A stretch of 64,000 nucleotides of DNA from the NCBI GenBank assembly GCA_041661245.1, contig JBAZUY010000001.1, forward strand, positions 156,355 through 220,354, read 5' to 3'. The DNA comes from an archaeon. Lineage in GTDB: Archaea; Iainarchaeota; Iainarchaeia; Iainarchaeales; JAAZKV01. Below the pieces are notes generated by a model. That model did no database searches. It had not been told where the DNA came from and worked only from the letters and a program-made list of their open reading frames with translations. Below are positions 14,553 to 61,585 of the stretch, piece by piece. Made by a program: the position numbers and the translations under genes. The first letter of the stretch is position 1. Every line of letters begins with the position of its first letter.

Positions 14553-15293
14553 TTAATTTGCTTTATCTGAAATACTCCACAAGTGATCAAAATCAGATTT
14601 AAACTCGGCAGCAATAGAATAACTCTCAATAAAAACCAAATTCTCATCATTCCGTGTATCCGCATTTTGAGAATAATTAAACGAACCAGTTGCAACAAAA
14701 TTACCATCAATAATTGTATATTTACTATGCATATACCCCGAACCATTTCTTCTTGAAACCTTAATCCCCGCATCAATTAATTTCTCATCATCACTAGAAG
14801 CATTAGCACTCTGATCATAATCAAACACAACTTCAATCTCAATGCCCCTCTTCTTTGCATTAACTAAAGCATCACTAATACCATCATGAGTAAATGAATA
14901 AATTGCAATGAAAATATTTTTATCAGCTGAATTAATTTTTTGAATTAGTTGCTCTGCACACGCATCCCTGGGACAAAAAAATACTCCGACTTTGTCCACT
15001 TTAACTGGTTCAATAGGTTTTGAATTAGTATCAAACAAATCAATTCTAAAATTAGAAAGATTACTATCCGAATTTGCCCCACTTGAACTAATAGTAGGAA
15101 TAATGGAATACCCATTATCAGTTCTAGCAAAAAATACAAATAACCCTCCAATGGCTATTACGAAAACTAAGAACCAAACTCCCGAACTAATTCCTTTACC
15201 TTCTCCAAAACCCACACTAGACCCCACCAAGGATGGAATAAAGCAGTTTTTATTCATTTCCCCCCATTGGTTAAGGTAAAGAAAGGGATACAA
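14553..15293 (-). CDS. Secreted/membrane-anchored PLD-superfamily (single HKD) Nuc-like endonuclease
   Basis: HKD motif MHSKYTIIDGNFVATGSFNYSQNA (H-x-K-x4-D...GS-N). N-terminal TM VWFLVFVIAIGGLFVFF. Confidence 0.65.
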   Translation of the reverse strand: MYPFLYLNQWGEMNKNCFIPSLVGSSVGFGEGKGISSGVWFLVFVIAIGGLFVFFARTDNGYSIIPTISSSGANSDSNLSNFRIDLFDTNSKPIEPVKVDKVGVFFCPRDACAEQLIQKINSADKNIFIAIYSFTHDGISDALVNAKKRGIEIEVVFDYDQSANASSDDEKLIDAGIKVSRRNGSGYMHSKYTIIDGNFVATGSFNYSQNADTRNDENLVFIESYSIAAEFKSDFDHLWSISDKAN

Positions 15294-18417: not shown

Positions 18418-19203
18418 TTAAATAATGGACCTCATTACTTTTAGTCTTTCTTTTGCGAACGCTTCGGACTCAACAAATGCGGAAGTTTTATCATTAATCG
18501 TATTTGAGGAAACCATAACCAATTCCCCGTTAGTAAGTGCAAATACTTTGTCTGAAAAAAGTAAAGCGTCATCAGGATTATGAGTGACAAAAATTGCAGA
18601 AATGTTTCGGGATTTAAGTATTTTTCTTAAATCTTTAATTAGTTTTTCTTTTACATTCCAATCAAGCGCACTAAAAGGTTCATCAAGCAAAAGCACTTTT
18701 GGATTAGCTGCCAAAGCTCTTGCAATCGCAACGCGTTGTTTTAATCCCCCCGAAAGTTCTTTTGGGAGTTTATCTTTATCATCAAGAACCCCAAGCAGGA
18801 CTAAATTCTTCAAAACAATTTCCTCTTTTTCTTTATCAGTTACTTTTTTTGAAAGAAGCCCCAAAGCAACATTTTCATACGCATTCTTCCATTCAAGAAG
18901 ACCAAGTTCTTGGAACACCATTGCTGCAAAAATATCCCCCCTTGACTCGAGATGAACTATCTTTCCAGAAGTAGGAACACTAAAACCCGCAACTAAATTT
19001 AACAAAGTTGATTTACCAGATCCGTTCTTTCCGCAAACTGAAATTATTTCTCCGCAAGAAACTTTCAAATTAATGTTTGAAAGAAGAGAACGTTTTGTTT
19101 CCCCCTTTTGAGCACAAGGATAAGAAAAACTAACTCCTGAAAGATTAAGACAAAGTTCATTCACCATGCGAAACACTCCTCCAAGAAGTAAGTTTTGTTT
19201 CAA
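18418..19203 (-). CDS. ABC transporter ATP-binding protein (NitT/TauT family)
   Basis: Walker A GKNGSGKST, signature LSGGLKQR, Walker B LLLDEP. Overlaps the permease gene. Confidence 0.8.
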   Translation of the reverse strand: MKQNLLLGGVFRMVNELCLNLSGVSFSYPCAQKGETKRSLLSNINLKVSCGEIISVCGKNGSGKSTLLNLVAGFSVPTSGKIVHLESRGDIFAAMVFQELGLLEWKNAYENVALGLLSKKVTDKEKEEIVLKNLVLLGVLDDKDKLPKELSGGLKQRVAIARALAANPKVLLLDEPFSALDWNVKEKLIKDLRKILKSRNISAIFVTHNPDDALLFSDKVFALTNGELVMVSSNTINDKTSAFVESEAFAKERLKVMRSII

Positions 19204-19924
19204 TAACTTGAATTACTTTTTGTAAAATTAAACCAATTACCCCAATGATTAACATTGCTGAAATTACACTAGAAGTATTCAATGAAAAACGATTTATTTC
19301 AATGAAATACCCTAAACCCTGACTTGAAGCAATTATTTCCGCAGCAATAACACACATCCAAGCCCAGCCTATTGCAGTTTTACAACCATTAATCAAATAC
19401 GGAACTGAAAATGGAAATACTATATGAACAAATTTCTGACTAAATGTAAGGGAATAGTTCTTTGAAACTCTTTCACAAACAATTGGGAGCGAAGTAACTC
19501 CAAAATACACACTTGTAAATACTGGAAAGAAACTTGCAAGAAAAATAATAAAAAATGCAGAAGCATCCCCAATACCAAACCACAATATTGCAAGTGGAAT
19601 CCATGCAATTGGAGGAATTGGACGAAGTAACTCAATTATTGGCTTAAGCACTGCATCAATGTATTTGTTCATCCCAGTCAAATACCCTAGAGTACTTCCT
19701 AGAATTAATCCTAACAAAAATCCAATTATTGCCCTGTTTAATGTTGCTAAAATATGAGGAAATATTTCCCCTGTAAAAATTAAAGTAATTAAACTCTCAA
19801 ATACTTCCAATGGCCCTGGAAAAATGAAACTGTTGAAAAGCATTGCAAAAGTTGCCCATATTGAAATGAAGAGAATTGCAGCAAAAACTGCCCCCATCCA
19901 TTTCAATAAATGCTTTTCAACCAT
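19157..19924 (-). CDS. ABC transporter permease (NitT/TauT family)
   Basis: Six-TM ABC permease pattern, immediately upstream of the ATPase. Confidence 0.75.
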   Translation of the reverse strand: MVEKHLLKWMGAVFAAILFISIWATFAMLFNSFIFPGPLEVFESLITLIFTGEIFPHILATLNRAIIGFLLGLILGSTLGYLTGMNKYIDAVLKPIIELLRPIPPIAWIPLAILWFGIGDASAFFIIFLASFFPVFTSVYFGVTSLPIVCERVSKNYSLTFSQKFVHIVFPFSVPYLINGCKTAIGWAWMCVIAAEIIASSQGLGYFIEINRFSLNTSSVISAMLIIGVIGLILQKVIQVIETKLTSWRSVSHGE

Positions 19925-19937
19925 TTTTTCACCAATT

Positions 19938-20933
19938 TTAGTTTACCATTGACAAATCTACTTTGCTATTGAAATCATATCCTTTCTTTAGTATGTTTTG
20001 ATCTCTTGCAAAATCTACTCTTGATTGCAAATCAATTATATCCTCTAAAGTCAAGTCAAAATTCACTTGAGCAATTGTATTTGCATCAAAATTTGGATCT
20101 GTGTAAGAGATTTTTTTTACCACATCTAGATTCATTTTTGCATCTTCTGAAACCCAAGCATATACTTTGTCTTTGTTTTGTGCAAAGTAAAGACTTGATT
20201 CTTTCATTGAATCCATGAATGCTTTTGCAGCACTAGGATTTTTAGCAATGAACTCTTTAGACATTGTTACAATTGCATAATCTTTTTCGCACACAATAGT
20301 TTCCGCTAGACCTTTAGATTCAAGAGCAACCATTGTACTTTTTCCCCACCCAACCCCATCAACTTGGTTTGAACTCAAAGCTGAAGCAAAATCATTTGGA
20401 CCAATATTAACCAAAGTTACATCTTTGTTTGGAACAAGTCCATTCTTTGCTAATTGCTGATAAACAACAATGAATGGCCCAGAACCAAAAGGAACACCAA
20501 ATTTTTTTCCTTTCAAATCCGCAACAGTACTAATTCCCGAACCTGTTTTTGCTAATAAGCAATCATCAAAGTAAGCGAATTTTCCAACAACTTCCCAACT
20601 AGGATCTTTTTCCAATAAGAATGAAGTTGGAGCCCAACCCATTAACATTACATCCAAATTTTTTGCTGCCGCTGCCTCAGACATTGGAGGACCAGTTAAA
20701 AATGCAGTAAATTTTCCTTCAAGTCCATTCTTTTCTAATATATCTGTTTTAATTAAAGGCTCAGAAACATAAGCGCTCTCCGCGAATGTATTAATCCACC
20801 CTACTCTAACCACATTAGTTTCTTTTGAAGCACTAAGCCCAAAAAACCCGCTTTGCGCTCCAAAGTTCACCGCAACAGCCAAAACAGCTATTGCAAGTAC
20901 TACTCCAATAACTAAACCAATATTCTTATTCAT
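19938..20933 (-). CDS. ABC transporter substrate-binding protein (NMT1/SsuA-like)
   Basis: Signal/TM N-terminus, 331 aa, first gene of the SBP-permease-ATPase operon. Confidence 0.65.
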   Translation of the reverse strand: MNKNIGLVIGVVLAIAVLAVAVNFGAQSGFFGLSASKETNVVRVGWINTFAESAYVSEPLIKTDILEKNGLEGKFTAFLTGPPMSEAAAAKNLDVMLMGWAPTSFLLEKDPSWEVVGKFAYFDDCLLAKTGSGISTVADLKGKKFGVPFGSGPFIVVYQQLAKNGLVPNKDVTLVNIGPNDFASALSSNQVDGVGWGKSTMVALESKGLAETIVCEKDYAIVTMSKEFIAKNPSAAKAFMDSMKESSLYFAQNKDKVYAWVSEDAKMNLDVVKKISYTDPNFDANTIAQVNFDLTLEDIIDLQSRVDFARDQNILKKGYDFNSKVDLSMVN

Positions 20934-20975: not shown

Positions 20976-21770
20976 ATGTGGTATTGGTACAACACCACAT
21001 TTATAAAAAGATTGACAGTTAGTCTTTGTATGGACTTTTCAATAATAAAAAAGCTTGGACTCTCTGATGGAGAAATAAAAGTTTATGAAGTTTTGTTAAG
21101 TAAAGGGGCCTCCCAATTAAATGTGATTCATGAATCAACAGGAATTGAGAGAAGAAACATATATGACATCTTAAACAAATTAATTGAGAGAGGACTTGTA
21201 ACTTACATTAACGAAAATAGAAAGCGAAAATTTCACATCAGCCACCCAAATCAATTAATCCATTATATCGAAGAGAAAGAAAGTGAACTTGAGAAAGTAA
21301 AAGAAGATCTTTCAAAAGAACTCCCGCCCCTAATAAAACAATTTAATGCACGAAGAGAATCCCCAACTGTAGAAGTTTACCGTGGAGAAGAAGGACTAAA
21401 AGCGGTTTGGGAAGATTCCCTAAATTATCCCGAGCTATACTGGATTGGGGCTGGGAGATATATTCCAAAACAAATGCCCACTTGGTTTAATTACTGGAAC
21501 AAAAAAAGACTTAAGAAAAAAGTTGTTTGGCACAACTTACTTCGATATGAGCTTAAAAAAGAAACTAAAGAAATGGAATATGAAGAAATCAAATTCCTCC
21601 CTGAAGAGTTTAGTAAAAACCCAACTGTAATCGGAATTTATGGAGATAATACTATTAACGTTTGGACAGCAAAAGGATTCTATTTCGTAGTACTAATCAA
21701 AGATAAAGCAATGGCTGAAAACTATATAGCATATTTCAAATATCTTTGGGATAATGTTGCAAAGAGATAA
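20976..21770 (+). CDS. TrmB-family HTH transcriptional regulator
   Basis: LSDGEIKVYEVLLSKGASQLNVIHESTGIERRNIYDILNKLIERGLV is the TrmB winged-HTH pattern. True start likely MDFSII... Confidence 0.7.
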   Translation: MWYWYNTTFIKRLTVSLCMDFSIIKKLGLSDGEIKVYEVLLSKGASQLNVIHESTGIERRNIYDILNKLIERGLVTYINENRKRKFHISHPNQLIHYIEEKESELEKVKEDLSKELPPLIKQFNARRESPTVEVYRGEEGLKAVWEDSLNYPELYWIGAGRYIPKQMPTWFNYWNKKRLKKKVVWHNLLRYELKKETKEMEYEEIKFLPEEFSKNPTVIGIYGDNTINVWTAKGFYFVVLIKDKAMAENYIAYFKYLWDNVAKR

Positions 21771-21791
21771 ACAGGACTTTACCCCTTACCG

Positions 21792-21850
21792 GCAAAACGC
21801 TTGTGTTTTGGATAAACCCACCTACCCCTGGCAAAACGCTTGTGTTTTGC
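21792..21850 (+). promoter_or_regulatory. Two copies of inverted repeat GCAAAACgcttgtGTTTTGC plus motif copies and TATA-like CTTTAAATA upstream of the radical-SAM gene
   Basis: Read directly: the inverted repeat occurs at 21792-21810 and 21831-21850. Confidence 0.5.
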
Positions 21851-21903
21851 ACCGGCAAAACACTTCCTCTGCTCTTTAAATACCAAAAAATAACAACTAA
21901 TTC

Positions 21904-23250
21904 ATGATTCTTGAGAAACTACAAAAACTAGGAATGGCTGCTAGTTACGATTCATGCGGGGGAGGAAAAGAAAAATCCTTTAGAGAATATGGAATACCAT
22001 ATGAGTATCAAAATTTTATTTACAATTGCACACAATCAAGTGAAAATGTATTCACAAGAAAAGTAATGAATAGTGCAAATAAATCAAATTTAAGGAACAC
22101 AAAACTCTATGAGAAGCAAGAGGTTACAACTCAAGATAAAAAAGAGTTGTGGGGCAAAATGTCAAAAGTTCTTCCAACTTCAAAAAGAGAAGAACTAAAC
22201 AAACCCAATAAGTGCTTACTAATGAAAGTACTTCAAGACAATACCTGTGTTCATGATTGCAATTATTGTGTTAACACTACTTGCAAACAAAAAGTCAGTC
22301 TTGAACCAAAAGAACTAGCTGATTCATTTGAATACTTATGGAAGAATGGATACACAACAGGATTATTTCTTAGCAGCGCAGTACACGGCACACCCGAACT
22401 CAGCACTGAAAAAATGATTGCAAGTACGCGCTTACTCCGCGAAAGAGGATACAAAGGATACATTCACATGAAAGTACTCCCTGACACACCGGATTATTTA
22501 ATTAAAGAAATGGCACTTTATGCAAACAGACTATCAATCAATATTGAATCAACTACCACTCAAGGCTTTGAAGAAATCACTACAACAAAAAACTACAAAG
22601 AAGGAGTATTAAGAAAAATTAATACGCTTGATTTGATTAAGAGGAAAGTTGATCGTGAACAAAACAAAAACGCAGGTTGGTTTTGTGACAATGACCAAGT
22701 AGAAAATGGAACTGATATGCGATTCAAGTCATTTACTACCCAAATAATTATTGGTGCAAACGAAGAAACTGATCAAAACATTTTAGATAGAATGAACTCA
22801 CTCTACGAAGAAACTCAACTCTATAGAACCTACTTCTCCGCTTTCTCCCCAGTAGAAGGAACTGCATTTGAGAAAAGAAAAGCTGAAGACAAAACACGCG
22901 AACATAGATTGTATGAGACTGATTGGTTGTTCCGAGTGTATGGATTCACGAAAAAAACAATTGAAAGTGGACTTAATGAATATGGAAATCTTCCCCGAAC
23001 ACAAGATGTAAAGGAAAGCATTGCGATTGCGAACAAACAACTCTTTCCACTTGACCTTAACTCTGCAACACGAGAAGAACTCTTACTCGTGCCAGGATTT
23101 GGACCAAAAACTGTTGAAAAAGTACTACAAGTACGCGAAGAAAAAAGAATAAGAGAATTTACTGATCTGCTTGAAGTCGGAGTAAGAATCTCAAAATCAA
23201 AAAACTATTTGAATATTGAAGGAAAACAATCAAAACTAACTTGGTACTAA
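21904..23250 (+). CDS. Radical SAM protein with C-terminal helix-hairpin-helix (putative DNA modification/repair radical SAM family)
   Basis: CxxxCxxC motif CVHDCNYC; C-terminal HhH LLLVPGFGPKTVEKVL. Architecture is radical SAM plus a DNA-binding HhH. Confidence 0.65.
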   Translation: MILEKLQKLGMAASYDSCGGGKEKSFREYGIPYEYQNFIYNCTQSSENVFTRKVMNSANKSNLRNTKLYEKQEVTTQDKKELWGKMSKVLPTSKREELNKPNKCLLMKVLQDNTCVHDCNYCVNTTCKQKVSLEPKELADSFEYLWKNGYTTGLFLSSAVHGTPELSTEKMIASTRLLRERGYKGYIHMKVLPDTPDYLIKEMALYANRLSINIESTTTQGFEEITTTKNYKEGVLRKINTLDLIKRKVDREQNKNAGWFCDNDQVENGTDMRFKSFTTQIIIGANEETDQNILDRMNSLYEETQLYRTYFSAFSPVEGTAFEKRKAEDKTREHRLYETDWLFRVYGFTKKTIESGLNEYGNLPRTQDVKESIAIANKQLFPLDLNSATREELLLVPGFGPKTVEKVLQVREEKRIREFTDLLEVGVRISKSKNYLNIEGKQSKLTWY

Positions 23251-23275
23251 GATTTATTCAAAAACCACACACTAT

Positions 23276-24190
23276 TCAAATCCCGCTTTGGGATAATAAT
23301 ATCGCACCAATTACCATGATTCCAATAAAAAGTGCTTTTTGAAGAATAGATTGCTTAGAAATATTTTCCTTCCCCAACCAAGGCGCAAACAAAGTAATCA
23401 ACACGCCAATGGATAAAATGAAAAATGGCTGAAACCCATTCACAATTGAAACTAAGCCAAGCGGAGCAAGGAGAGTAACAAAAGAAAAAAGAAATGCAGC
23501 TAAGATGTTAATTATTTCATTAAAAATATTCAAACCCAATACTTTCCCAGAGTTCTTTTTGAAAACCGCAAAAAACTGTTCGCGATATTGCTTTTTTAGA
23601 AGTAATAAAAGCCCAAAAAGGAAAAATCCTATTTGTTCCCAAAACAGAGTAGTAAAAAAATCTGTTTGAACAGCAACATATTTTAGAATCACATAACTTA
23701 AAGCAATTAAAAAAGAAGCAAACAACATATATGCCAAAACTTTTTTGTTAAAGTGCAATTTTCTAGAGATAAAATTAGTTGAAAGTCCAAACGCACCAAA
23801 TACAATTAACGCACCAGCAACTAATTGCAACCCTGATAAACTTTCCCCCAAAATCAAGAAACTTAAGATTACTCCAAACACCGGAATTGATTGAAAAATT
23901 GGAACAACTTTTGAGGCCTCATCAAGCTTAAGCGCCCAAAAATAAGGAAACATGTAAAGAATGTAAATAAAACCTACAAAAATCATTACAAGTGCGTAAA
24001 ATAAAGAAATCGAGAAAACTGCAGGGTGAATTAAATAAATTACAGGGAGAGTCAAAAGACTAATAAAACTTGAGAACAAAATTAATGCCCCAGTTTCACC
24101 CTTAAAGTAGCCATCAATTAAATATTTGTCAATTCTATTACTAAGCGCAAAAAGAAACGGAGGAATCAATGCAAGCCAAAGCCAATCCAT
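23276..24190 (-). CDS. Polytopic membrane transporter (EamA/DMT-like)
   Basis: About 10 predicted TM helices; 304 aa. Confidence 0.5.
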   Translation of the reverse strand: MDWLWLALIPPFLFALSNRIDKYLIDGYFKGETGALILFSSFISLLTLPVIYLIHPAVFSISLFYALVMIFVGFIYILYMFPYFWALKLDEASKVVPIFQSIPVFGVILSFLILGESLSGLQLVAGALIVFGAFGLSTNFISRKLHFNKKVLAYMLFASFLIALSYVILKYVAVQTDFFTTLFWEQIGFFLFGLLLLLKKQYREQFFAVFKKNSGKVLGLNIFNEIINILAAFLFSFVTLLAPLGLVSIVNGFQPFFILSIGVLITLFAPWLGKENISKQSILQKALFIGIMVIGAILLSQSGI

Positions 24191-24289
24191 AATAAAAGAA
24201 AGAAAACTTCAATTTTTAACTTTGTGGTATTAAAAAATATGTCCAGGAAATAGTGCCCTTCGAGATAATTTAAAAAGTACAAAGTAGTA

Positions 24290-24910
24290 ATGAATAGTAT
24301 GAACTCGCCAGGAAAAAAATCTATTTTGAAGAAAGCAATCTACAAATTAGGAAAAACACGAACTGAAGAGGTAAACTCCAGAATAAAAAGCATAAATCGA
24401 AGACTTGCTAATCGAGATCTCACTAAGGCACGATTCACACTTGTTGAACCATATCACCCGCAATCGTTAGGGCACCTTAAAAGAAATGGACTCCTATTCA
24501 ATCCAAATAAAGGAGGAAACTGTTCAGGGTATGCAACAAGAATTGCAACCGCGGTTTTTGGCAAACAATACACTAGGGGCGCGGCTTGGGAGCTTGCAGC
24601 ATTAAATGAAGTAAGTTACAGAAAACCAAAGAATGCAATTGAAATAAGCAAACAAAGATTGTTAAGACTGATAAGAAAGAATGTGATTAGGCCCGGAACA
24701 ATAATTGGAATATATTACCCAAATAGCCCACAAAATATTAAAGGAAGAGAAAATACTCACGTAATGACTTACGCAGGAGAAGGACAATTTTGGCACAACT
24801 ATGGGGGGCCAAGAGCAATTTCAATAGACTCCATTTACAGTAAAACAAACAAAGAGGGCGAGAGAGTTTTCTTCCCAGTGATTGTGATTAATCCAAAAAG
24901 GACGAAATAA
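24290..24910 (+). CDS. NlpC/P60-like papain-fold peptidase/amidase
   Basis: Catalytic-Cys block GGNCSGYATRI (compare DCSGF) and His block THVMTYAGEGQFWHNYG (compare HVGIYIGNGQFIHA). Basic N-terminus; no signal peptide seen. Confidence 0.5.
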   Translation: MNSMNSPGKKSILKKAIYKLGKTRTEEVNSRIKSINRRLANRDLTKARFTLVEPYHPQSLGHLKRNGLLFNPNKGGNCSGYATRIATAVFGKQYTRGAAWELAALNEVSYRKPKNAIEISKQRLLRLIRKNVIRPGTIIGIYYPNSPQNIKGRENTHVMTYAGEGQFWHNYGGPRAISIDSIYSKTNKEGERVFFPVIVINPKRTK

Positions 24911-24939
24911 AAATAAAGAGCTTAAAATAAAAAAAAGCA

Positions 24940-24986
24940 TTGGCTTAATTAGGCCAACACTTTCGTACTCGCAACTATGCGAGTAC
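24940..24986. terminator. Two hairpins between convergent genes, likely bidirectional terminator
   Basis: Hairpins TTGGCttaattagGCCAA and GTACTCGCAactaTGCGAGTAC (9-bp stem) between convergent genes, flanked by A/T runs. Confidence 0.45.
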
Positions 24987-26141
24987 TTTTGCTTCAGCCT
25001 TTAGTTTATCAGCAAGATCTGTTTTTTCCCAAGTGAAATCAGGATCATTTCTTCCAAAGTGACCATAAGCAGCAGTCTTTCTATAAATTGGTCTTCTTAA
25101 GTTCAATCTATCAAGAATGTCTTTTGGTTTAAGTGGGAAATACTTTCGCACTAAAACAACTATTTTGTCTTCAGAGATTGTATTTGTCCCAAACGTATCA
25201 ACAAATATTCCTGTAGGTTCAGCAACTCCGATTGCATAAGCTAATTGAACTTCACATTTAGTTGCAAGCCCTGCAGCAACAATATTTTTTGCAATATACC
25301 TTGCAGCATATGCAGCACTTCTATCAACTTTAGTTGGGTCTTTTCCAGAGAAAGCTCCTCCTCCGTGTCTACCCATCCCACCATAAGTATCTACAATTAT
25401 TTTTCTTCCAGTTACACCAGTGTCCCCTTCAGGCCCACCAATAACAAACTTCCCAGTTGCATTAATGTGAATCTTTGTATCCTTGTCAAGCATACTGCCG
25501 CAAACAGGAGTGATAACCTTTTCAAAAATGTCTTTCTTTAGTTGAGCCTCAGAAACTATTTCTAAGTGTTGTTGTGCAATAACAACTGCCTCAATTCTTT
25601 TTGGTTTACCATCATCATATTCAATAGTAACTTGAGTTTTTCCATCAGGACCAAGATCTTTTATGATACCTTTTTTTCTCACTTCAGCAAGTTTCATTGC
25701 TAATTTATGCGCAAGCATTATTGGTAATGGCATTAATTCAGGAGTTTCATTGCAAGCAAAACCAAACATCATTCCTTGATCTCCAGCACCCTGTTCTTTG
25801 TTTGAAGATTCATTAACTCCTTGAGAAATGTCAGGAGATTGACCATGTAAAGAAACCCAAACACCAGCATCTTCCCCATCAATTCCAAATAAAGGATTAG
25901 TATATCCAATTTCTTTTAGCACAGTTCTTGCAACTTTTTGCACGTCAACGTAACCTTTAGTAGTAACTTCTCCAGCAACGTGAATTGATCCTGTTGTAGT
26001 TAAAGTTTCAACAGCAACTCTTGAGTAAGGATCTTGTTTTAGTAATTCATCAAGCACTCCATCTGAAACTTGATCACAAATTTTATCAGGGTGTCCTTCA
26101 GTCACACTCTCTGATGTAAAAAAATATTTCTTCTGTTCCAT
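24975..26141 (-). CDS. metK: S-adenosylmethionine synthetase, bacterial/eukaryotic MetK type
   Basis: N-terminal [22 protein letters not shown] is the canonical MetK signature; 388 aa. Confidence 0.9.
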
Positions 26142-26347
26142 TCTAAAACCTCCAAAAAAACTATCCGACTAGTTCAAAACCCAAAACGAGGGGTTAATTA
26201 CTAGTTGCTGATTAGTTGCTGACTAGTGATAGGAGGTTTGAAGGGTAATTTAAACCTTTCCAAGGAAAAAATCAATTTAGTTGCTGCAACAGCACTGCAA
26301 TAGAACTGTTGAGATAATTTTTGACTTGAAACAAAAAGGTGGATAAA

Positions 26348-26509
26348 ATGAAACAAGAAAACAGAGTGAGCCCATATTTTTCTGATGAACAAGTAAAAAT
26401 TATTGATGAACTAATAGATAAAATTGGGTGCACAAGAGCGGACGTAGTAAAACAACTCGCACTAATCAAATTAACAGAAATGGGTTACTTTAATAAAAAT
26501 AAAAAATAA
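26348..26509 (+). CDS. Small ribbon-helix-helix-like protein (53 aa; not in ORF track, below size cut-off)
   Basis: Hand-translated MKQENRVSPYFSDEQVKIIDELIDKIGCTRADVVKQLALIKLTEMGYFNKNKK, an RHH/CopG-like pattern. Confidence 0.35.
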   Translation: MKQENRVSPYFSDEQVKIIDELIDKIGCTRADVVKQLALIKLTEMGYFNKNKK

Positions 26510-26734
26510 TTATTCAAGCATTGATTTAACCCAAAGCTCGATTTTTCTCTTTGATGCATTCGGCCCAAACTTTTTTCTTGCAAGAGTAAGGAGTTCTAAC
26601 TTGGAAGGATCTATCCAGGGTTTATTTCTTGCCGCCCTAGTTGCCCTTGCGCTTTTTGTAAAAAGTCTTTTGCTTAGTACTGCTTTCGGCACGCCCGCAA
26701 ATATTCTTCCAGTCATAGGAAAATAATTTTCCAA
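26510..26734 (-). CDS. Small highly basic protein, function unknown
   Basis: 74 aa, K/R-rich. Weak resemblance to the L19e N-terminus (KPWIDPSK) but too short. Confidence 0.3.
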   Translation of the reverse strand: MENYFPMTGRIFAGVPKAVLSKRLFTKSARATRAARNKPWIDPSKLELLTLARKKFGPNASKRKIELWVKSMLE

Positions 26735-26804
26735 AAAGATTATTAATGCCCTCTAAAACACCCCCAAACACTAAATATAAATAGACTAAATCCCAAAGAT
26801 AAAC

Positions 26805-27209
26805 ATGGCAAAAAAGATAAACTACACTGAAACCAAAGGATTTGTTGTTTGGATTGAAGAAGGAATTGCAAGAGTCAAAGTGAAACCAAACGCAGAAATT
26901 GACTTAATGGACGTTGTGTGTTACGAGAAGGCGATTACTTGTTTTGCAAAAAATACTCCTATGCTGGTAATCTTTGATATTCGCGAATTATTATCCATTT
27001 CAGACCCTGCATTAAATTATTTGCTTACTAATGAAAAAACCATGAAACCACTCACGATTGCGGCTGCGATACTTTTTTCATTCCCCACAATGAGGATAAG
27101 ACTTATTCTTAACGTCCTAACACTATTAAAAAAACCACCTTTTCCAATGAAAGTTTTCATGGATGAAAAAAAAGCACTTGCTTGGCTGAAATCCTTTCCC
27201 CAAAGATAA
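26805..27209 (+). CDS. Hypothetical protein, paralog of 15267..15722
   Basis: Shared C-terminal block with the paralog (KVFMDEKKALAWLKSF). Confidence 0.45.
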   Translation: MAKKINYTETKGFVVWIEEGIARVKVKPNAEIDLMDVVCYEKAITCFAKNTPMLVIFDIRELLSISDPALNYLLTNEKTMKPLTIAAAILFSFPTMRIRLILNVLTLLKKPPFPMKVFMDEKKALAWLKSFPQR

Positions 27210-27240
27210 GGATTAGATTAATTGACTTATTTAATCAATT

Positions 27241-29208
27241 TTAAGGACTCTTTTTTTGCATAAGCTCTTTTTGCATTGAAGATATTTGGTCTCTTAATGC
27301 AATTGCCAGTTCAAAATCAAGTCTTTCTGCAGCAGCACGCATTTCAACTTCTAGTTGAGTAACAAGTCTTTCTTTTTCTTTATTAGGAATATGCTTTGTA
27401 TCCTTAATTATAATGCTCTGCTCTTCAATTGCTTTAATTATTGTTTTAGGAGTAATGTGATTCTTCTTATTATATGCTAATTGAATTGTTCTTCTTCTAT
27501 TTGTCTCAGCAATAGCTTTTTGCATTGAATCCGTATTTTTATCAGCGTATAAAATTACTTTAGAAGTAGAATTTCTCGCAGCCCTCCCAATAATTTGAAT
27601 CAAACTCTTCTGGTCTCTTAAGAATCCTTCTTTATCAGCATCAAAAATAGCAACAAGCCCAAGCTCAGGAATATCAATTCCTTCTCTTAGTAAATTAATT
27701 CCAACTAAAACATCAAACTTTCCTACTCTAAATTGCCTAATAATTTCACTTCTATCAAGGGTTTTAATTTCAGAATGCAAGTATCTTGCCTTAATTCCCT
27801 TTGAAGCAAAAAAATCCGCTAACTCTTCAGCAAGTTTTTTTGTTAAAGCAGTTACTAAAACTCTATTTCCTTTCTTTATTACTTCATCAATTTCTTTTAG
27901 CATATCTTCCATTTGCCCTTTTGTTCCCCGCACTGTAACTTCAGGATCTACAAGTCCAGTCGGCCTAATGATTTGTTCAACAAAATTCTTTGAAACCAAG
28001 CGTTCGTATTTATCAGGAGTTGCACTAACAAAAACAACATTTTGTTTGTTCAAATACTCCTTTTCAAATTCACTAAACTTAAGCGGCCTATTATCAAGTG
28101 CACTTGGAAGTCTGAATCCATAGTCTACAAGAGTTTGTTTTCTTTGTCTATCTCCATTATACATTCCATTAAGTTGTGGAATTGATTGGTGAGATTCATC
28201 AATTACAATCAAAAAATCTTCTCCAAAATAATCCATTAAAGTATAAGGTTTTTCCCCTTCCGCTCTTTTATCAAAATGTCTTGAATAATTTTCAATCCCT
28301 TTACAAAACCCAAGGGTTTTCATTAACTCAAGATCATAATTTGTTCTTTGTTTTAATCTATGCGCTTCAATTAAACCCAGTTCTGGAAGTCTCTTGTCAA
28401 GTTCTTTTTTTATTGAATCCATCGCACTAATTGTTTCGCTTTCAGGAACAACAAAGTGACGGGCAGGAAATAAATGATAATGCGTCAAGCGTTGTAGAAG
28501 TGCATTAGTTTGTTTATCAAGAATATGAATTCTATCTATTTTATCCCCATCAAGTTCTACCCTTAGAATATTTCGCTCATACCCTGGGATAATGTCAATA
28601 ATACTTCCTTTTACTCTAAATCGTCCACTCATTAATTCTAAATCATTTCTCTCATACTGTGCATCAAGCAACTTTGACATTAATTCGACCCGAGGAAAAT
28701 TCATTCCCTCTTCAAGTTCAAACCCCATCCCCAAATAGTTCTTTGGATTACCCAACCCATAAATGCAAGAAACACTTGCAATAACAATAACATCATTTCT
28801 TGATAACAGAGAAGTTGTTGCAGAGAGACGCATTCTTTCAATATATTCATTAATTTGAGAATCCTTCTCAATGTATTGATCAGTTGAAGGAATATAGGAT
28901 TCAGGTTGGTAATAATCATAAAAAGAAACAAAATATTCCACTCGATTATTTGGAAAAAAAGCTTTGAACTCATTGTATAATTGAGCTGCAAGAGTTTTGT
29001 TGTGCGCAAGAACTAAAGTTTTCTTTTGCACATTTTGAATTACATTTGCTATTGTAAAAGTTTTTCCTGAACCCGTAACTCCTAAAAGAGTTTGGGGAGA
29101 TTTTCCTGTTTTGATTCCTTTAGTGAGTGAATCAATTGCCTCTGGCTGAGAACCCGCAGGCTTAAAACTCGAAACAAGTTTGAACTTGTGCTCTTCAACT
29201 TTTTGCAT
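27241..29208 (-). CDS. uvrB: Excinuclease ABC subunit B (UvrB)
   Basis: 655 aa. N-terminal F-K-L-V-S-x-F-x-P-x-G-x-Q-P..A, helicase motifs GSGKTF, DESH, QIIGRAAR, C-terminal UVR coiled coil. Confidence 0.9.
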   Translation of the reverse strand: MQKVEEHKFKLVSSFKPAGSQPEAIDSLTKGIKTGKSPQTLLGVTGSGKTFTIANVIQNVQKKTLVLAHNKTLAAQLYNEFKAFFPNNRVEYFVSFYDYYQPESYIPSTDQYIEKDSQINEYIERMRLSATTSLLSRNDVIVIASVSCIYGLGNPKNYLGMGFELEEGMNFPRVELMSKLLDAQYERNDLELMSGRFRVKGSIIDIIPGYERNILRVELDGDKIDRIHILDKQTNALLQRLTHYHLFPARHFVVPESETISAMDSIKKELDKRLPELGLIEAHRLKQRTNYDLELMKTLGFCKGIENYSRHFDKRAEGEKPYTLMDYFGEDFLIVIDESHQSIPQLNGMYNGDRQRKQTLVDYGFRLPSALDNRPLKFSEFEKEYLNKQNVVFVSATPDKYERLVSKNFVEQIIRPTGLVDPEVTVRGTKGQMEDMLKEIDEVIKKGNRVLVTALTKKLAEELADFFASKGIKARYLHSEIKTLDRSEIIRQFRVGKFDVLVGINLLREGIDIPELGLVAIFDADKEGFLRDQKSLIQIIGRAARNSTSKVILYADKNTDSMQKAIAETNRRRTIQLAYNKKNHITPKTIIKAIEEQSIIIKDTKHIPNKEKERLVTQLEVEMRAAAERLDFELAIALRDQISSMQKELMQKKSP

Positions 29209-29267
29209 AAGTAGTACTTCCTATAAGAGATTTAAAGAACTTTCTAGAGCAATTTGCCGGGCGATTT

Positions 29268-30809
29268 TTATTTTCCAAAAACTTCTTTTCTCTTTAGAAC
29301 TTTTCTATACGCATTGGCAAACCTGTGCGCTTCATCCCTAATAGCTTGAAGCATTTGTAAGCCTTTATGTTTCTTATCAAGTTTAATTGGAAATTTTCTA
29401 TCAGGGCGATAAATTTCTTCAAATTGCTTTGCAAGCGAGATAATAGGAATATTAAGTTTGAGTTGTTGCAACACTTCACTTGCAACCCCTAATTGAGTTG
29501 GCCCCCCATCAATTACAATAAGATCCGGATTTCGCATTGTTTTTGATAATGATCCCGAATATCTTCTTTCCACAGCTTCCCGCATAGCCATTAAATCATC
29601 ATTATTAGTTTCTGCCCTAATTTTGAATTTTCTATACTCCGATTTATTTGGAAAACCATCTTTAAATGAAACCATTGAAGCAACAGTATTTGTTCCACTC
29701 AAGTGAGAGATATCAAAACACTCAATAACGTGAGGAACTTTTTCTAAGCCTAACGCTTTTTGAAGCTCTGTAATTCTCTCACTTCCTGCAAAAAAAGTTG
29801 CAGTAATGTTTTTTGAAACAAATTCAAGAAGTTCTTTCTTTTCTCCACTCTTTGGAACGATTACTTGCACTTTCCTTTTTTCTTTTTCACTTACTTTTTT
29901 TGTCAAGTATTCTTGGATAGTTGGATTCACTTCCACTGGAAGAATAATTTCTTGAGGAATGTTTGACTCGTCATAAAATTGCACCAAAAACTCTTCCAAA
30001 AAATCCTCTTTTTCAGGAAAAACAAATTCTTGTTTATCTTCGACAACCCCTTTTCTAACATTAAACAGCAAGAGATGAACTTCTCCGGCAGAGATGGTGT
30101 AATTAATTACGTGCGCATCAATGGTTTTTGTAAACTCCACTCTCTGACGTTCCTTTAATGTTTTAAGCGCAGCGATTTGGTTTCTTAGAGTAATAGCATA
30201 TTCAAAATTATTCTTTTCTGAATTTTCTTTCATATTTTTTTCGAGTTCTTCTATTAATTCATCCACATTCCCTTTGAGAATCTTTTTTACTTGATTCACT
30301 CGTTTATTGTACTCCTCTTTATTCATTAATTTTCTTAATTGGGGAGAAGGTTTTTGAGTGAGAACTTTAAAGTTTCGGCTCACAGTATCCATTATTACTT
30401 TTCTAATACTCCCACTCACAAACGGGCCAAAGTATTCTCCCTTTTCATTCCTAATTCTTGCAACTTCAAGCCAAGGCAATTCATCCCCGCTTACTCGAAT
30501 ATAAGCATATCTGCGCGAATCCTTCAAATCAAGATTAAAATGAGGATAATATTTTTTTATTAAATTATTTTCAAGCAATAATGCTTCAACTTCAGTTGAA
30601 ACTAAAACAAAATCAATCTTTTTTATTTTTGTTACTAATAGTTCTGTTTTTGGATCATGTTCTTTTTTTTGAAAATAGTTAGAGACTCTTTTCTTCAGGT
30701 CCTTGGCTTTTCCAACATAAAGCACAACATCATTCTCATCTTTGAAGAGGTAACACCCAGGAGAATTGGGCAAGAAACTAATTTCATTTGGAGAAATCAT
30801 ACAATTCAC
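29268..30809 (-). CDS. uvrC: Excinuclease ABC subunit C (UvrC)
   Basis: GIY-YIG N-terminus (GCYLFKDENDVVLYVGKAKDLKKR), UvrC central region, RNase H-like/HhH C-terminus. Confidence 0.85.
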   Translation of the reverse strand: MNCMISPNEISFLPNSPGCYLFKDENDVVLYVGKAKDLKKRVSNYFQKKEHDPKTELLVTKIKKIDFVLVSTEVEALLLENNLIKKYYPHFNLDLKDSRRYAYIRVSGDELPWLEVARIRNEKGEYFGPFVSGSIRKVIMDTVSRNFKVLTQKPSPQLRKLMNKEEYNKRVNQVKKILKGNVDELIEELEKNMKENSEKNNFEYAITLRNQIAALKTLKERQRVEFTKTIDAHVINYTISAGEVHLLLFNVRKGVVEDKQEFVFPEKEDFLEEFLVQFYDESNIPQEIILPVEVNPTIQEYLTKKVSEKEKRKVQVIVPKSGEKKELLEFVSKNITATFFAGSERITELQKALGLEKVPHVIECFDISHLSGTNTVASMVSFKDGFPNKSEYRKFKIRAETNNDDLMAMREAVERRYSGSLSKTMRNPDLIVIDGGPTQLGVASEVLQQLKLNIPIISLAKQFEEIYRPDRKFPIKLDKKHKGLQMLQAIRDEAHRFANAYRKVLKRKEVFGK

Positions 30810-33650: not shown

Positions 33651-33716
33651 CGCTAGTTAAAGAGTATAAAAACATTTGTGGAGTGCTTTGCCGGTGGTCG
33701 TAACCAATTTTTTATT

Positions 33717-38179: not shown

Positions 38180-38314
38180 ACCAAAACCACAAAACAGTGA
38201 CTTACTCGATTAGAAAGTACTTAATGCAATAGTTAATAAATAATTGGAGAGGAGTTTGCCGGAACAAAAATAGTAAGCAAAAAGAATTTAATACTCCCAA
38301 AGCATTAGATTAGT

Positions 38315-44835: not shown

Positions 44836-44919
44836 ACGCAGAGGCCGAGATTCGAACTCAGGTACCCTTTCGGATAACGGGTTAGTAACCCGCCGCATTT
44901 GACCGCTCTGCCACCTCTG
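44836..44919 (-). tRNA. Class II tRNA (Ser-type; discriminator G) with apparent anticodon ACU
   Basis: Reverse complement is GCAGAGG-TG-GCA-GAGCGGTCAAA-TGC-G-GCGGG-TTACTAA-CCCGT-[long variable arm]-CTGAG-TTCGAAT-CTCGG-CCTCTGC-G. The 7-nt loop TTACTAA places ACT at positions 34-36. No CCA encoded. Confidence 0.7.
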
Positions 44920-45108
44920 CTTGAAGACTTTCCGCCCCTTCAGGACCAAGTGAAACTTTTGTTTCACGGGTCAAGCAAAAGCCTTACTTTTGCTTTGACG
45001 TGTGCCCCCTCGCTTCGCTCGGTGACACTGATTTATTACAAATTATGCATTCACAGAGAATTAAAAACTTAACCAAAAACCTAATTCAAAAAAAAAGGTA
45101 GAATTTAT

Positions 45109-48878: not shown

Positions 48879-48986
48879 AAGTAAATTAACTTATTTTAAA
48901 CTTACAGTTCTAACTAACACCGGCAAAACACTTACTCCAATATTTATAAATTCTCAAAATAAGTTTCTTTTCAAGGAGGTATTTTT

Positions 48987-51266: not shown

Positions 51267-51301
51267 AGCTATTACTAATCCTCGTGTGTGATTTGTTAAT
51301 T

Positions 51302-52594: not shown

Positions 52595-52611
52595 AAGCTT
52601 TTAAAACATTT

Positions 52612-52628
52612 GGAGAGTGTTTTGCCGG
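52612..52628 (+). promoter_or_regulatory. Recurrent motif GGAGAGTGTTTTGCCGG in the divergent MTase/52666 promoter region
   Basis: One of 7 instances of GGAG..GTGTTTTGCCGG. The others are at 48919-48937 (rc), 21852-21869 (rc), 21789-21800 (rc), 33680-33694, 38246-38262 and 29246-29263. Lies just upstream of the A/T-rich TATA-like box TTTTAATA. Confidence 0.5.
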
Positions 52629-61544: not shown

Positions 61545-61585
61545 TAAAAAAAAAATAAAAACGATTAGAAACTTAATATAATTGA

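What the first reader, a model, noticed from the sequence alone, without database searches (positions are those of the whole stretch)
21771..23250. Radical SAM + HhH putative DNA-repair protein preceded by duplicated palindromes
The product carries CVHDCNYC (CX3CX2C) and a C-terminal HhH (LLLVPGFGPKTVEKVL). This architecture matches the 'putative DNA modification/repair radical SAM' family, which in bacteria pairs with a UDG-like partner; no partner gene is adjacent here. Its 133-bp leader contains two copies of GCAAAACgcttgtGTTTTGC, each with a 7-bp inverted repeat, and two copies of the CCGGCAAAAC motif. This is unusually dense regulatory structure for this compact genome.
Basis: partly seen in the sequence, partly recalled or inferred. 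Interest (0 to 1): 0.55.

Follow-up and report, generated by a model that had tools for sequence, protein, structure and literature searches.

The report
Shared promoter box links rSAM-HhH to UvrAB
An uncharacterised radical-SAM enzyme with a DNA-binding tail in a small (DPANN-type) archaeon carries the same short promoter box as the excision-repair genes uvrA and uvrB in this and related genomes, which suggests an SOS-like DNA-repair regulon in these archaea.

Summary
ORF 21904-23250 encodes a 448-aa radical-SAM protein with CVHDCNYC and a C-terminal HhH. Its best family match is TIGR03916, but at 244 bits against a cutoff of 343.5, and no DUF4130/UDG partner was found. The 20-nt repeat GGCAAAACGCTTGTGTTTTG occurs twice (0.01 expected).

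The 133 bp are not a transcribed leader. A TATA box lies 29 nt before the ATG, as is usual in this genome, so the repeats sit upstream of a leaderless promoter.

The main result is the promoter-proximal CCGGCAAAACAC box.
- It lies 17 nt upstream of the TATA box.
- The same box at the same spacing precedes uvrB, uvrA, a Bro-N/DinD-like gene, a cytosine methylase and a putative toxin-antitoxin pair in the window: 6 sites against 0.27 expected.
- In related archaeal contigs it precedes rSAM-HhH in 14/14 distinct loci, uvrB in 5/7 and uvrA in 4/5. It precedes uvrC in 0/7 and other genes in 8/260.
- Its variable half changes with the genome.

The palindromes are extra box-derived half-sites and are kept only in the closest relatives.

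My best reading is that rSAM-HhH is a core member of a putative DNA-repair regulon driven by an unidentified factor. Damage-inducibility is an inference and has not been shown.

The parts
21904..23250 (+). Radical-SAM + helix-hairpin-helix protein, 448 aa. It is a stand-alone archaeal relative of COG4277/TIGR03916. CX3CX2C is at nt 22246-22269 and the HhH at about nt 23056-23130. The N-terminal motif LGMAASYDSCGG is conserved, and residues of roughly 25-103 include a clade-specific insert.
   Evidence: invariant D16, C119, C122, P397, G400; C18 and C115 at 90% or more. AF2 model pLDDT 88.7. Foldseek finds only generic radical-SAM barrels.
21852..21868 (+). Promoter-proximal box CCGGCAAAACACTTCCT. 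This is the copy conserved in all orthologous promoters. CCGGCA ends 17 nt before the TATA box.
21875..21882 (+). TATA box TTTAAATA, starting 29 nt before the ATG. This predicts a leaderless transcript.
   Evidence: Read directly from the sequence. TATA-like hexamers peak at -25..-34 across 57 window genes. The same geometry is seen in all orthologs.
21789..21811 (+). Distal palindrome 1: a full box copy CCGGCAAAACGC followed by the inverted partial copy GTGTTTTGG. The arms are 6 bp with a 6-nt spacer.
   Evidence: A homologous element GACAAAACgctggtATTTTGA is present in L007.
21828..21850 (+). Distal palindrome 2: the near-box CTGGCAAAACGC followed by the inverted GTGTTTTGC. With the proximal box it forms the arrangement forward-N6-reverse-N4-forward.
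   Evidence: L021 has the same half-site spacing with different spacer sequences.
20976..21770 (+). TrmB-family regulator; the likely true start is M19 at 21030. Its conserved partner is the divergent NMT1-type ABC transporter operon (18418-20933), not the rSAM gene.
   Evidence: (TrmB-NMT1 pairs in L019).
29231..29260 (-). uvrB promoter: the box CCGGCAAATTGCTC plus TATA TTTAAATC. The gene is 27241-29208 (-).
   Evidence: Orthologous uvrB promoters carry the box in 5 of 7 distinct loci.
38233..38262 (-). uvrA promoter: the box CCGGCAAACTCCTC plus TATA-like TTTATTAA. The gene is 35372-38179 (-).
   Evidence: Orthologous uvrA promoters carry the box in 4 of 5 loci.
33665..33694 (-). Promoter of a Bro-N/DinD-like gene (32796-33650, -): the box CCGGCAAAGCACTCC plus TATA TTTTATAC.
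   Evidence: JGI names relatives 'DNA-damage-inducible protein D'. The ortholog in L148 has CGCCGGTAAATCACTCT at the same place and is followed by Hef.
48920..48950 (+). The box CCGGCAAAACACTTAC plus TATA TTTATAAA, ahead of a small two-gene pair (48987-49307 and 49308-49562). I read this pair as a putative antitoxin and RelE/ParE-like toxin.
   Evidence: The toxin-antitoxin call is my reading of the sequences; Pfam gave no hit.
52598..52628 (-). The box CCGGCAAAACACTCTCC plus TATA TTTAAAAG, ahead of a cytosine-5 DNA methyltransferase (51302-52594, -). The core forms the palindrome TTGCCGGCAA. The MutH/Sau3AI-like endonuclease gene 50541-51266 (+) lies next to it.

Best explanation
The gene encodes a stand-alone archaeal relative of the COG4277/TIGR03916 'DNA modification/repair' radical-SAM family. 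It has a [4Fe-4S]/SAM barrel that would generate a 5'-deoxyadenosyl radical, and a C-terminal HhH that would hold it on nucleic acid.

The 133 bp upstream are promoter DNA and not a leader. Transcription starts at or next to the ATG, from a TATA box at -29.

Seventeen nt upstream of that TATA box sits a bipartite, non-palindromic box (c-CGGCA-N5-CTC; here CCGGCAAAACACTTCC). The same box at the same distance precedes uvrA, uvrB, a Bro-N/DinD-like gene, a DNA methylase and toxin-antitoxin genes, both here and in related DPANN-type archaea. I infer that an unidentified transcription factor binds this box just upstream of BRE/TATA, an activator-type position. I also infer that it co-regulates a repair and genome-defence gene set whose content mirrors the bacterial SOS regulon, and that rSAM-HhH is its most constant member.

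The two palindromes are additional box-derived half-sites. They are specific to the closest relatives and most likely add factor-binding sites at this one promoter.

Shown: the protein's features, the promoter geometry, the box and its conservation, spacing and gene association.

Inferred: factor binding, direction of regulation, damage-inducibility, and DNA (not RNA) as the enzyme's substrate.
For: Protein:
- Pfam Radical_SAM scores 30.3 bits, and the HhH models score just under their cutoffs.
- TIGR03916 is the best NCBIfam hit (E 3e-72).
- The AF2 model has pLDDT 88.7 with a radical-SAM barrel.
- The ComEA HhH domain is the only PDB sequence hit.

Promoter:
- The TATA box is at -29, and the same geometry is seen in all orthologs.
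- TATA-like hexamers peak at -25..-34 for the window's genes.

Box in the window:
- CCGGCA-N16-18-TATA occurs 6 times, against a mean of 0.27 and a maximum of 2 in 300 dinucleotide shuffles.
- 6 of 15 CCGGCA copies have a TATA at that offset, against a 2.4% background (binomial 8e-7).
- All six lie upstream of genes in the right orientation: rSAM-HhH, uvrB, uvrA, Bro-N/DinD-like, dcm and a small gene pair.

Box across genomes:
- The box precedes rSAM in 14/14 distinct loci, uvrB in 5/7 and uvrA in 4/5.
- It precedes uvrC in 0/7 and other genes in 8/260. Fisher's test gives 4e-24.
- Six of those eight 'others' are dcm, the Bro-N/DinD-like gene, two hicB genes and two PIN genes; the other two look incidental.
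- The CGGC-to-ATG distance is 50-54 nt in most sites.

Co-variation by genome:
- L013 has CATGACAC at both the hicB and rSAM promoters, and L016 has CAAATTAGTT at both.
- L025 has CGGCT at both rSAM and uvrB.
- L026 has CACCGGAAGCCCGCTC at both hicB and rSAM.

Logo: positions outside the search pattern are conserved, namely -1 C in 25/34 sites, +4 A in 30/34, +10 C in 25/34 and +11 T in 28/34.

Palindromes: L021 keeps the forward-N6-reverse-N4-forward half-sites with different spacers, and L007 keeps one palindrome upstream of its box promoter even though no TrmB gene is there.

Context:
- The uvrA-uvrC-uvrB...metK-rSAM neighbourhood recurs in L019 and L020.
- Bacterial COG1573-COG4277 operons are reported as LexA/SOS-regulated in several phyla (PMC8565304).
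Against: - There is no expression or binding data, so damage-inducibility is pure inference from gene content.
- No regulator has been identified.
- The box is missing or degenerate at some uvrA and uvrB promoters (L024 both genes, L023 uvrB). It is also missing at the Bro-N gene of a more distant genome (L149) and in Methanobrevibacter.
- Part of the box set consists of toxin-antitoxin and restriction-modification genes. The regulon could therefore concern mobile or defence genes, or some other stress, and not DNA damage.
- The CGGC core was the search pattern, so its invariance in the logo is circular.
- The inverted half-sites of the palindromes lack the CGGC core, which is the best-conserved part of the box. 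They may not be bound at all.
- The fold search gives only generic radical-SAM hits and does not favour a DNA substrate.
Confidence: 0.6

Rival explanations
1. The box is a real promoter element but is not a damage-response operator. It would be a constitutive upstream element, or the site of a general or another-stress regulator, used by a mixed set of mostly horizontally acquired genes (uvrA/B, toxin-antitoxin, restriction-modification, Bro-N). Under this reading rSAM-HhH shares it without any link to DNA repair.
For: Many box genes are mobile or defence-type: hicB, PIN, a RelE-like pair and dcm. The position upstream of BRE also fits a simple activating element. There are no expression data.
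Against: The element is selective: uvrA and uvrB carry it but uvrC does not (9/12 against 0/7, p 0.002). It accompanies a DinD-like gene and a family that is SOS-regulated in bacteria. Only 8 of 260 other genes carry it.
Confidence: 0.22
2. The palindromes belong to the upstream TrmB-family gene. They would be either its operator (TrmB proteins bind palindromes such as TATCAC-N5-GTGATA) or a 3'-end or terminator hairpin, and would be unrelated to the rSAM promoter.
For: The TrmB gene ends 21 nt before palindrome 1, and the TrmB-syntenic ortholog L021 also has a palindrome. The whole region folds better than shuffles (-26.6 kcal/mol, z -3.1).
Against: L007 keeps the palindrome with no TrmB gene upstream. 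TrmB's conserved partner is the divergent ABC transporter operon. The single hairpins are weak (-4.5 kcal/mol, z -0.3), and the terminator scan found none. The 5' arm of each palindrome is the regulon box itself, and the overall fold is a trivial consequence of repeated palindromes.
Confidence: 0.12
3. The enzyme modifies RNA (tRNA or rRNA, as RlmN, Cfr and MiaB do) and not DNA. Its link to the uvr genes would then be regulatory coincidence or genomic neighbourhood.
For: HhH domains bind nucleic acid non-specifically. Weak family hits include MiaB-like and LipS/BioB models. The function of the family is untested (bioRxiv 10.64898/2026.08.19.745780). The Foldseek hits are generic.
Against: The promoter box is shared with uvrA and uvrB in many genomes. 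The gene lies in a conserved neighbourhood with the uvr genes. Bacterial homologs pair with UDG-like proteins and sit in LexA regulons.
Confidence: 0.12
4. The repeats and the box are chance similarities in AT-rich intergenic DNA.
For: The motifs are short and the genome has 34.5% G+C.
Against: The 20-mer duplicate has 0.01 matches expected. Box plus TATA occurs 6 times against 0.27 expected. The cross-genome association gives p 4e-24.
Confidence: 0.01

Closest known systems
[quoted passage not shown]
   Same: Best HMM match (E 3e-72 over profile positions 50-381 of 415). It shares the CX3CX2C motif, the C-terminal HhH and the N-terminal YDxCG motif. The bacterial operon is reported as SOS-regulated (PMC8565304), which parallels the shared box with uvrA and uvrB here.
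   Different: The score of 243.9 bits is below the 343.5-bit cutoff. No DUF4130 or UDG partner was found in the window or in the fetched loci around the orthologs. There is an extra segment of about 70 residues between the N-terminal motif and the cluster motif. The host is archaeal and the promoter is archaeal.
Bacterial SOS (LexA) regulon
   Same: The gene content matches: uvrA and uvrB but not uvrC, a DinD-like gene, a COG4277 radical-SAM gene and toxin-antitoxin modules. The E. coli memberships are from my own knowledge; the COG4277 membership is from PMC8565304.
   Different: There is no LexA-type palindromic operator overlapping the promoter. The box is non-palindromic, sits upstream of an archaeal BRE/TATA (an activator-like position), and its regulator is unknown. 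No recA/radA member was seen in the DNA available.
Sulfolobales Orc1-2 / DDRE (ANTTTC) DNA-damage response
   Same: It is an archaeal damage regulon defined by a short promoter motif lying -23 to -55 from the ATG and bound by an activator (PMC6061795).
   Different: The motif differs (ANTTTC against cCGGCA-N5-CTC), as does the lineage. The regulon content also differs (ups, ced and tfb3 in that system; uvrA and uvrB here).
WYL-domain activators of bacterial damage responses (PafBC, DriD and the Moraxellaceae regulator)
   Same: They act as activators from a site upstream of the core promoter. The Moraxellaceae regulon combines DNA-damage and anti-phage defence genes (PMC12392091, title and abstract), as the box set here combines NER with toxin-antitoxin and restriction-modification genes.
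   Different: They work with bacterial sigma-70 promoters. No WYL protein was seen among the window ORFs scanned.
Spore photoproduct lyase SplB (COG1533)
   Same: It is a radical-SAM enzyme that repairs DNA directly, and it is SOS-regulated in several bacteria (PMC8565304, PMC3765255).
   Different: No sequence-family hit to SplB was found, and it is not among the top 50 Foldseek PDB hits. SplB has no C-terminal HhH of this kind.

Membership tests
Radical SAM superfamily (PF04055) | CX3CX2C cluster motif and partial TIM-barrel; HMM score at or above the gathering threshold | tested here: met
   CVHDCNYC is at residues 115-122. PF04055 scores 30.3 bits against a cutoff of 29.5. C119 and C122 are invariant, and C115 is conserved in 90% or more of 74 homologs. 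The AF2 model matches HydE, LIAS, PFL-AE and BioB with probability 1.00.
TIGR03916 (rSAM_link_UDG) | Whole-protein score at or above the curated cutoff of 343.5 bits | tested here: not met
   243.9 bits, E 3.1e-72, aligned to profile positions 50-381 of 415.
TIGR03916 (rSAM_link_UDG) | Always paired with a TIGR03915/DUF4130 protein, which is often fused to a UDG-like domain | tested here: not met
   The neighbours are TrmB, EamA, a 206-aa protein with no family hit, and metK. No DUF4130 or UDG hit was found in about 44 window ORFs or in the precomputed Pfam lists of loci L018-L027. The rest of the genome could not be searched.
TIGR03916 (rSAM_link_UDG) | C-terminal helix-hairpin-helix DNA-binding module | tested here: met
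   HHH_3 scores 25.4 bits and HHH 22.5 bits, both just below their cutoffs. ComEA HhH is the only PDB sequence hit. P397 and G400 are invariant, and G398 is conserved in 90% or more of homologs.
COG4277 (predicted DNA-binding HhH protein) | Assignment to the COG | not tested
   No COG library was available. JGI labels the identical protein and close relatives 'predicted DNA-binding helix-hairpin-helix protein', the wording I recall as the name of COG4277. This is inference only.
LexA/SOS regulon | A LexA repressor and a palindromic or direct-repeat LexA operator overlapping the promoters | tested here: not met
   The shared element is non-palindromic and lies 17 nt upstream of the TATA box. 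No LexA-like (Peptidase_S24) protein was seen among the scanned window ORFs. Only 64 kb of the genome was available.
Orc1-2 / DDRE regulon of Sulfolobales | The ANTTTC hexanucleotide in damage-responsive promoters, bound by Orc1-2 | tested here: not met
   The box consensus is cCGGCA-N5-CTC, not ANTTTC (PMC6061795). The presence of Orc1-2 was not examined.
Intrinsic terminator or structured leader RNA | A stable hairpin, followed by a T-run for a terminator, or a fold beyond chance within the transcript | tested here: not met
   No terminator-like site was found. The single hairpins give -4.5 kcal/mol with z -0.3. No Rfam family hits the region at gathering thresholds. The region lies upstream of the predicted start of transcription.

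The most novel reading that the evidence does not exclude
A clade of DPANN-type archaea (relatives labelled Iainarchaeum or Diapherotrites) runs an SOS-like DNA-damage regulon through a previously undescribed upstream box, cCGGCA-N5-CTC, placed 17 nt before the TATA box, and an unknown regulator. The regulon would control uvrA, uvrB (not uvrC), a DinD-like gene, and toxin-antitoxin and restriction-modification modules. Its most constant member would be a partner-less radical-SAM/HhH enzyme that repairs DNA directly in the dark under anoxia. This would be the second archaeal damage regulon known after Orc1-2, and it would assign a physiological role to the COG4277 family.
Probability: 0.4. Interest if true: 0.78.

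Novelty: new variant of a known kind. Interest (0 to 1): 0.62.

Why it matters
Three points would matter if the reading holds.

1. Outside Sulfolobales, no archaeal DNA-damage regulon with a defined cis-element came up in the papers I could search, and none for DPANN archaea. A box with fixed promoter geometry gives a concrete handle: a PWM for genome-wide regulon prediction and a bait for pulling down the regulator.

2. The COG4277/TIGR03916 radical-SAM family is widespread and biochemically uncharacterised. Independent regulatory coupling to uvrA and uvrB in archaea, alongside LexA control in bacteria, makes 'acts on damaged DNA' the hypothesis to test first.

3. The box set mixes repair genes with toxin-antitoxin and restriction-modification genes. 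That echoes recent bacterial regulons which couple damage responses to defence.

Tried and rejected
- RNA reading of the 'leader'. The single hairpins fold no better than shuffles. The global fold (z -3.1) only reflects repeated palindromes. No terminator-like site and no Rfam family was found. The region is upstream of the predicted transcription start. Rejected.
- TrmB (20976-21770) as the box regulator or the owner of the palindromes. Its conserved partner is the divergent NMT1/ABC operon, and L007 keeps a palindrome without TrmB. This is unlikely, although it is not excluded for the palindromes.
- Partner search. No DUF4130 or UDG was found in the scanned ORFs of the window or in related loci. 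The bacterial relatives I fetched (Mahella L006) are also stand-alone, so I had no DUF4130 sequence to use for a tblastn.
- Solved structures. The PDB sequence search gave only ComEA HhH. Foldseek gave only generic radical-SAM enzymes, with no SPL-like match. Neither says anything about the substrate.
- Viral contigs. Two near-identical loci had a TATA-like hexamer nearby, and none resembled the promoter.
- RHH_12 genes that follow a box in L020 and L024 were considered as a candidate autoregulated factor. No homolog exists in the window.
- Literature. There were no hits for TIGR03916. COG4277 appears only in the Bacteroidetes LexA paper. Papers combining DPANN and UvrABC say nothing on regulation in their titles or abstracts.
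Full report
**1. Observation**

The window has 34.5% G+C. The rSAM protein is 100% identical to a protein from an 'archaeon' MAG on a 788-kb contig. UvrB and rSAM relatives are labelled Ca. Iainarchaeum, ainarchaeum or Diapherotrites, so the source is a DPANN-type archaeon.

- CVHDCNYC is at residues 115-122.
- ...REELLLVPGFGPKTVEKVLQ... lies near the C-terminus.
- Pfam gives Radical_SAM at 30.3 bits (cutoff 29.5). HHH_3 and HHH score 25.4 and 22.5 bits, just under their cutoffs.

The 133-bp intergenic stretch 21771-21903 holds an exact 20-nt duplicate, GGCAAAACGCTTGTGTTTTG, at 21791 and 21830. The expected number of matches is 0.01. The first copy has 6-bp inverted arms and the second has 7-bp arms. 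CCGGCAAAAC occurs at 21789 and 21852, and CTGGCAAAAC at 21828. The strongest inverted repeat is GTGTTTTGC-accg-GCAAAACAC at 21842-21863.

**2. The protein**

[quoted passage not shown] In an alignment of 74 homologs, D16, C119, C122, P397 and G400 are invariant. C18, C115 and G398 are conserved in at least 90% of sequences. The N-terminal motif (LGMAASYDSCGG) and the HhH are therefore family features.

The closest 35 homologs are 396-464 aa long, almost all 439-464. More distant archaeal ones are about 375 aa. The extra length maps to residues of roughly 25-103, where model confidence is lower.

The AF2 model is confident (pLDDT 88.7). Foldseek against the PDB returns only generic radical-SAM barrels: HydG, HydE, LIAS, PFL-AE and BioB, with TM 0.4-0.6. 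Spore photoproduct lyase is not in the top 50. The PDB sequence search finds only ComEA HhH domains.

No DUF4130 or UDG partner was found.
- It is not adjacent. The neighbours are TrmB, EamA, a 206-aa protein with no hit, and metK.
- It is not among about 44 window ORFs scanned with Pfam.
- It is not in the Pfam-labelled neighbourhoods of the orthologs.

A bacterial relative, Mahella L006, is also stand-alone. The protein is therefore a partner-less relative of TIGR03916/COG4277 and not a strict member. The biochemical function of the family is still unknown (bioRxiv 10.64898/2026.08.19.745780).

**3. The 133 bp are promoter DNA and not a leader**

TTTAAATA (21875-21882) starts 29 nt before the ATG. 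Over 57 window genes, TATA-like hexamers pile up at -25..-34 from the start codon: 36 occurrences in those two 5-nt bins, against roughly 5 per bin elsewhere. Leaderless transcripts are therefore the norm in this genome. Every rSAM ortholog shows the same geometry.

The palindromes lie upstream of the promoter. As RNA they are unremarkable:
- single hairpins give -4.5 kcal/mol with z -0.3;
- no terminator-like site is found;
- no Rfam family hits at gathering thresholds.

**4. The promoter-proximal box is shared with repair genes**

Orthologous loci have different upstream neighbours. Even so, all carry CCGGCA (GGCGGCA in one locus) at a fixed distance before their TATA box.

In the window, 6 of the 15 CCGGCA copies are followed 16-18 nt later by a TATA-like hexamer. 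The background rate for that offset is 2.4% (binomial 8e-7). Three hundred dinucleotide shuffles give a mean of 0.27 and a maximum of 2 such sites.

| Box position | Gene downstream |
|---|---|
| 21852 (+) | rSAM-HhH |
| 29260 (-) | uvrB (27241-29208) |
| 38262 (-) | uvrA (35372-38179) |
| 33694 (-) | Bro-N domain gene with weak DinD similarity (32796-33650); JGI names relatives 'DNA-damage-inducible protein D' |
| 52628 (-) | cytosine-5 DNA methylase (51302-52594), next to a MutH/Sau3AI-like endonuclease gene |
| 48920 (+) | small two-gene pair that reads like an antitoxin and RelE/ParE-type toxin |

These assignments rest. uvrC (29268-30809) has no box.

**5. Comparative test**

I fetched uvrB, rSAM and Bro-N loci from related contigs. 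I then counted CGGC[A/T/G]-N15-19-TATA within 110 nt upstream of every called gene in the 17 loci fetched by then, plus the window. Duplicates were removed by hand.

| Gene class | Promoters with the box |
|---|---|
| rSAM-HhH | 14/14 distinct loci |
| uvrB | 5/7 |
| uvrA | 4/5 |
| uvrC | 0/7 |
| all other genes | 8/260 |

- Fisher's test gives 4e-24 for rSAM, uvrA and uvrB against other genes, and 0.002 for uvrA/B against uvrC.
- Six of the eight 'others' are dcm, the Bro-N gene, two hicB genes and two PIN genes. The remaining two look incidental.
- The CGGC-to-ATG distance is 50-54 nt in most sites.

The variable 3' half of the box changes with the genome and not with the gene.

| Locus | Variant | Promoters sharing it |
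|---|---|---|
| L013 | CATGACAC | hicB and rSAM |
| L016 | CAAATTAGTT | hicB and rSAM |
| L025 | CGGCT | rSAM and uvrB |
| L026 (375-aa clade) | CACCGGAAGCCCGCTC | hicB, and two direct copies before rSAM |

This pattern is what co-evolution of a site with its binding protein would produce.

A logo from 34 sites shows conservation outside the search pattern: -1 C in 25/34 sites, +4 A in 30/34, +10 C in 25/34 and +11 T in 28/34. The element is therefore bipartite and non-palindromic, c-CGGCA-N5-CT(C), spanning about one helical turn. It ends roughly 7-9 nt before the TATA box, just upstream of BRE. That is the usual place for archaeal activators (my own knowledge).

The box is absent or degenerate in some cases: L024 uvrA and uvrB, L023 uvrB (CCGACA), the Bro-N gene of the distant L149, and Methanobrevibacter. 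The Bro-N ortholog in the L019 genome has CGCCGGTAAATCACTCT at the right place and is followed directly by a Hef helicase/nuclease gene.

**6. The palindromes**

Each palindrome is a forward box copy plus an inverted copy of the box's 3' half (CAAAACAC). Together with the proximal box, the window reads forward-reverse, 16-nt gap, forward-N6-reverse-N4-forward.

- L021 (85% aa identity, TrmB also upstream) has GGCAAAAC-aactct-ATTTTGC-cgcg-GCAAAACAC. The half-sites and the N6/N4 spacings are the same, but the spacers differ.
- L007 (89% identity) keeps GACAAAAC-gctggt-ATTTTGA upstream of the box promoter of a hicBA pair that precedes rSAM. No TrmB gene is present there.
- Orthologs at 76% identity or less have only the single box.

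The palindromes are therefore conserved among the nearest relatives, travel with the box promoter, and are not a TrmB feature. TrmB's conserved partner is the divergent NMT1/ABC transporter operon.

I read the palindromes as auxiliary binding sites for the same factor, either cooperative or acting as a roadblock to read-through from the TrmB gene. The reading is weak because the inverted arms lack the CGGC core.

**7. Mechanism proposed**

Shown:
- a conserved box with fixed spacing to the TATA box at the rSAM-HhH, uvrA and uvrB promoters;
- the same box at the Bro-N/DinD-like, toxin-antitoxin and methylase promoters;
- a conserved uvrA-uvrC-uvrB...metK-rSAM neighbourhood.

Inferred:
- One sequence-specific factor binds the box and co-regulates these genes.
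- The set is a DNA-damage or genome-integrity regulon. It mirrors the bacterial SOS regulon, in which uvrA, uvrB and dinD are members but uvrC is not (E. coli, my own knowledge), and in which the COG1573-COG4277 operon is LexA-regulated in Bacteroidetes, Verrucomicrobia and Alphaproteobacteria (PMC8565304).
- The enzyme uses a 5'-deoxyadenosyl radical on a DNA lesion while held on DNA by its HhH. This would be a light- and oxygen-independent repair route suited to an anaerobe.

**8. Comparison with what is known**

The only archaeal damage regulon with a defined motif that my searches found is Orc1-2/ANTTTC in Sulfolobales (PMC6061795). Its motif, lineage and gene content all differ from what is seen here. 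Searches for TIGR03916, COG4277 and DPANN with UvrABC gave nothing on this box.

The protein is a new stand-alone member of a known but uncharacterised family. The regulon box is a new variant of a known kind of system.

**9. Limits**

- Only 64 kb of the genome and flanks of at most 10 kb in relatives could be read.
- No regulator was identified.
- No expression data exist.
- The CGGC core was the search pattern, so its invariance in the logo is circular.
- The toxin-antitoxin call for 48987-49562 has no HMM support.

Noticed in passing
window 50541-52594: A restriction-modification pair lies here. A MutH/Sau3AI-type endonuclease (50541-51266, +; Pfam MutH 82 bits) is convergent with a C5 cytosine methylase (51302-52594, -). 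Only the methylase has the box promoter. The box core forms the palindrome TTGCCGGCAA, which is shared with the divergent gene of unknown function at 52666-53841.
   Followed up: partly
L007 1526-2041; L013 5383; L016 244; L026 7471-7903: A hicB/hicA toxin-antitoxin pair sits immediately upstream of the rSAM-HhH gene in four different lineages. Each pair has its own copy of that genome's box variant. The adjacency recurs even though other neighbours differ.
   Followed up: partly
L019 10001-15301; L020 10001-16369; window 21904-29208: There is a conserved neighbourhood of uvrB, a few variable genes, metK (SAM synthetase) and rSAM-HhH. A SAM synthetase near a SAM-consuming enzyme may be more than coincidence.
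   Followed up: no
L148 4001-7291: The Bro-N/DinD-like ortholog is followed 19 nt later, on the same strand, by a Hef-type helicase/ERCC4 nuclease/HhH gene. This may be an operon linking the Bro-N protein to DNA repair.
   Followed up: no
L020 1-361; L024 2100-2643: A box promoter is followed by an RHH_12 (ribbon-helix-helix) gene. A conserved ATGTGTATTATGTGTAAA stretch lies just before the gene in both genomes. I considered this a candidate autoregulated factor, but no homolog exists in the window.
   Followed up: partly
window 33717-34421 and 14553-15254: A second TrmB-family paralog (30% identical to the one at 20976) ends 23 nt before the box of the Bro-N gene. A third protein combines a PLD-like domain with a TrmB effector-type domain. 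The genome is rich in TrmB-type proteins for its size.
   Followed up: no
window 30836-31528: An HTH_10 (bacterio-opsin-activator-type) regulator gene lies directly upstream of uvrC on the same strand, inside the uvr cluster. It is not seen at that position in the related loci fetched.
   Followed up: no
window 44837-44920 and 61584-61670: ARAGORN calls a tRNA-Ser with the unusual anticodon ACT. It also calls a tRNA-Leu(TAG) that Rfam did not report at its gathering threshold.
   Followed up: no
window 20976-21030: The TrmB ORF listed from 20976 probably starts at M19 (21030). All orthologs align only from residue 19 onward.
   Followed up: partly
one search hit list (P0260, P0326, P0330): The Bro-N/DinD-like protein is 64-79% identical across very different hosts: Woesearchaeota, Nanoarchaeota, Methanoperedens, Altiarchaeales and even a candidate division SR1 bacterium. 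This suggests recent horizontal spread.
   Followed up: no
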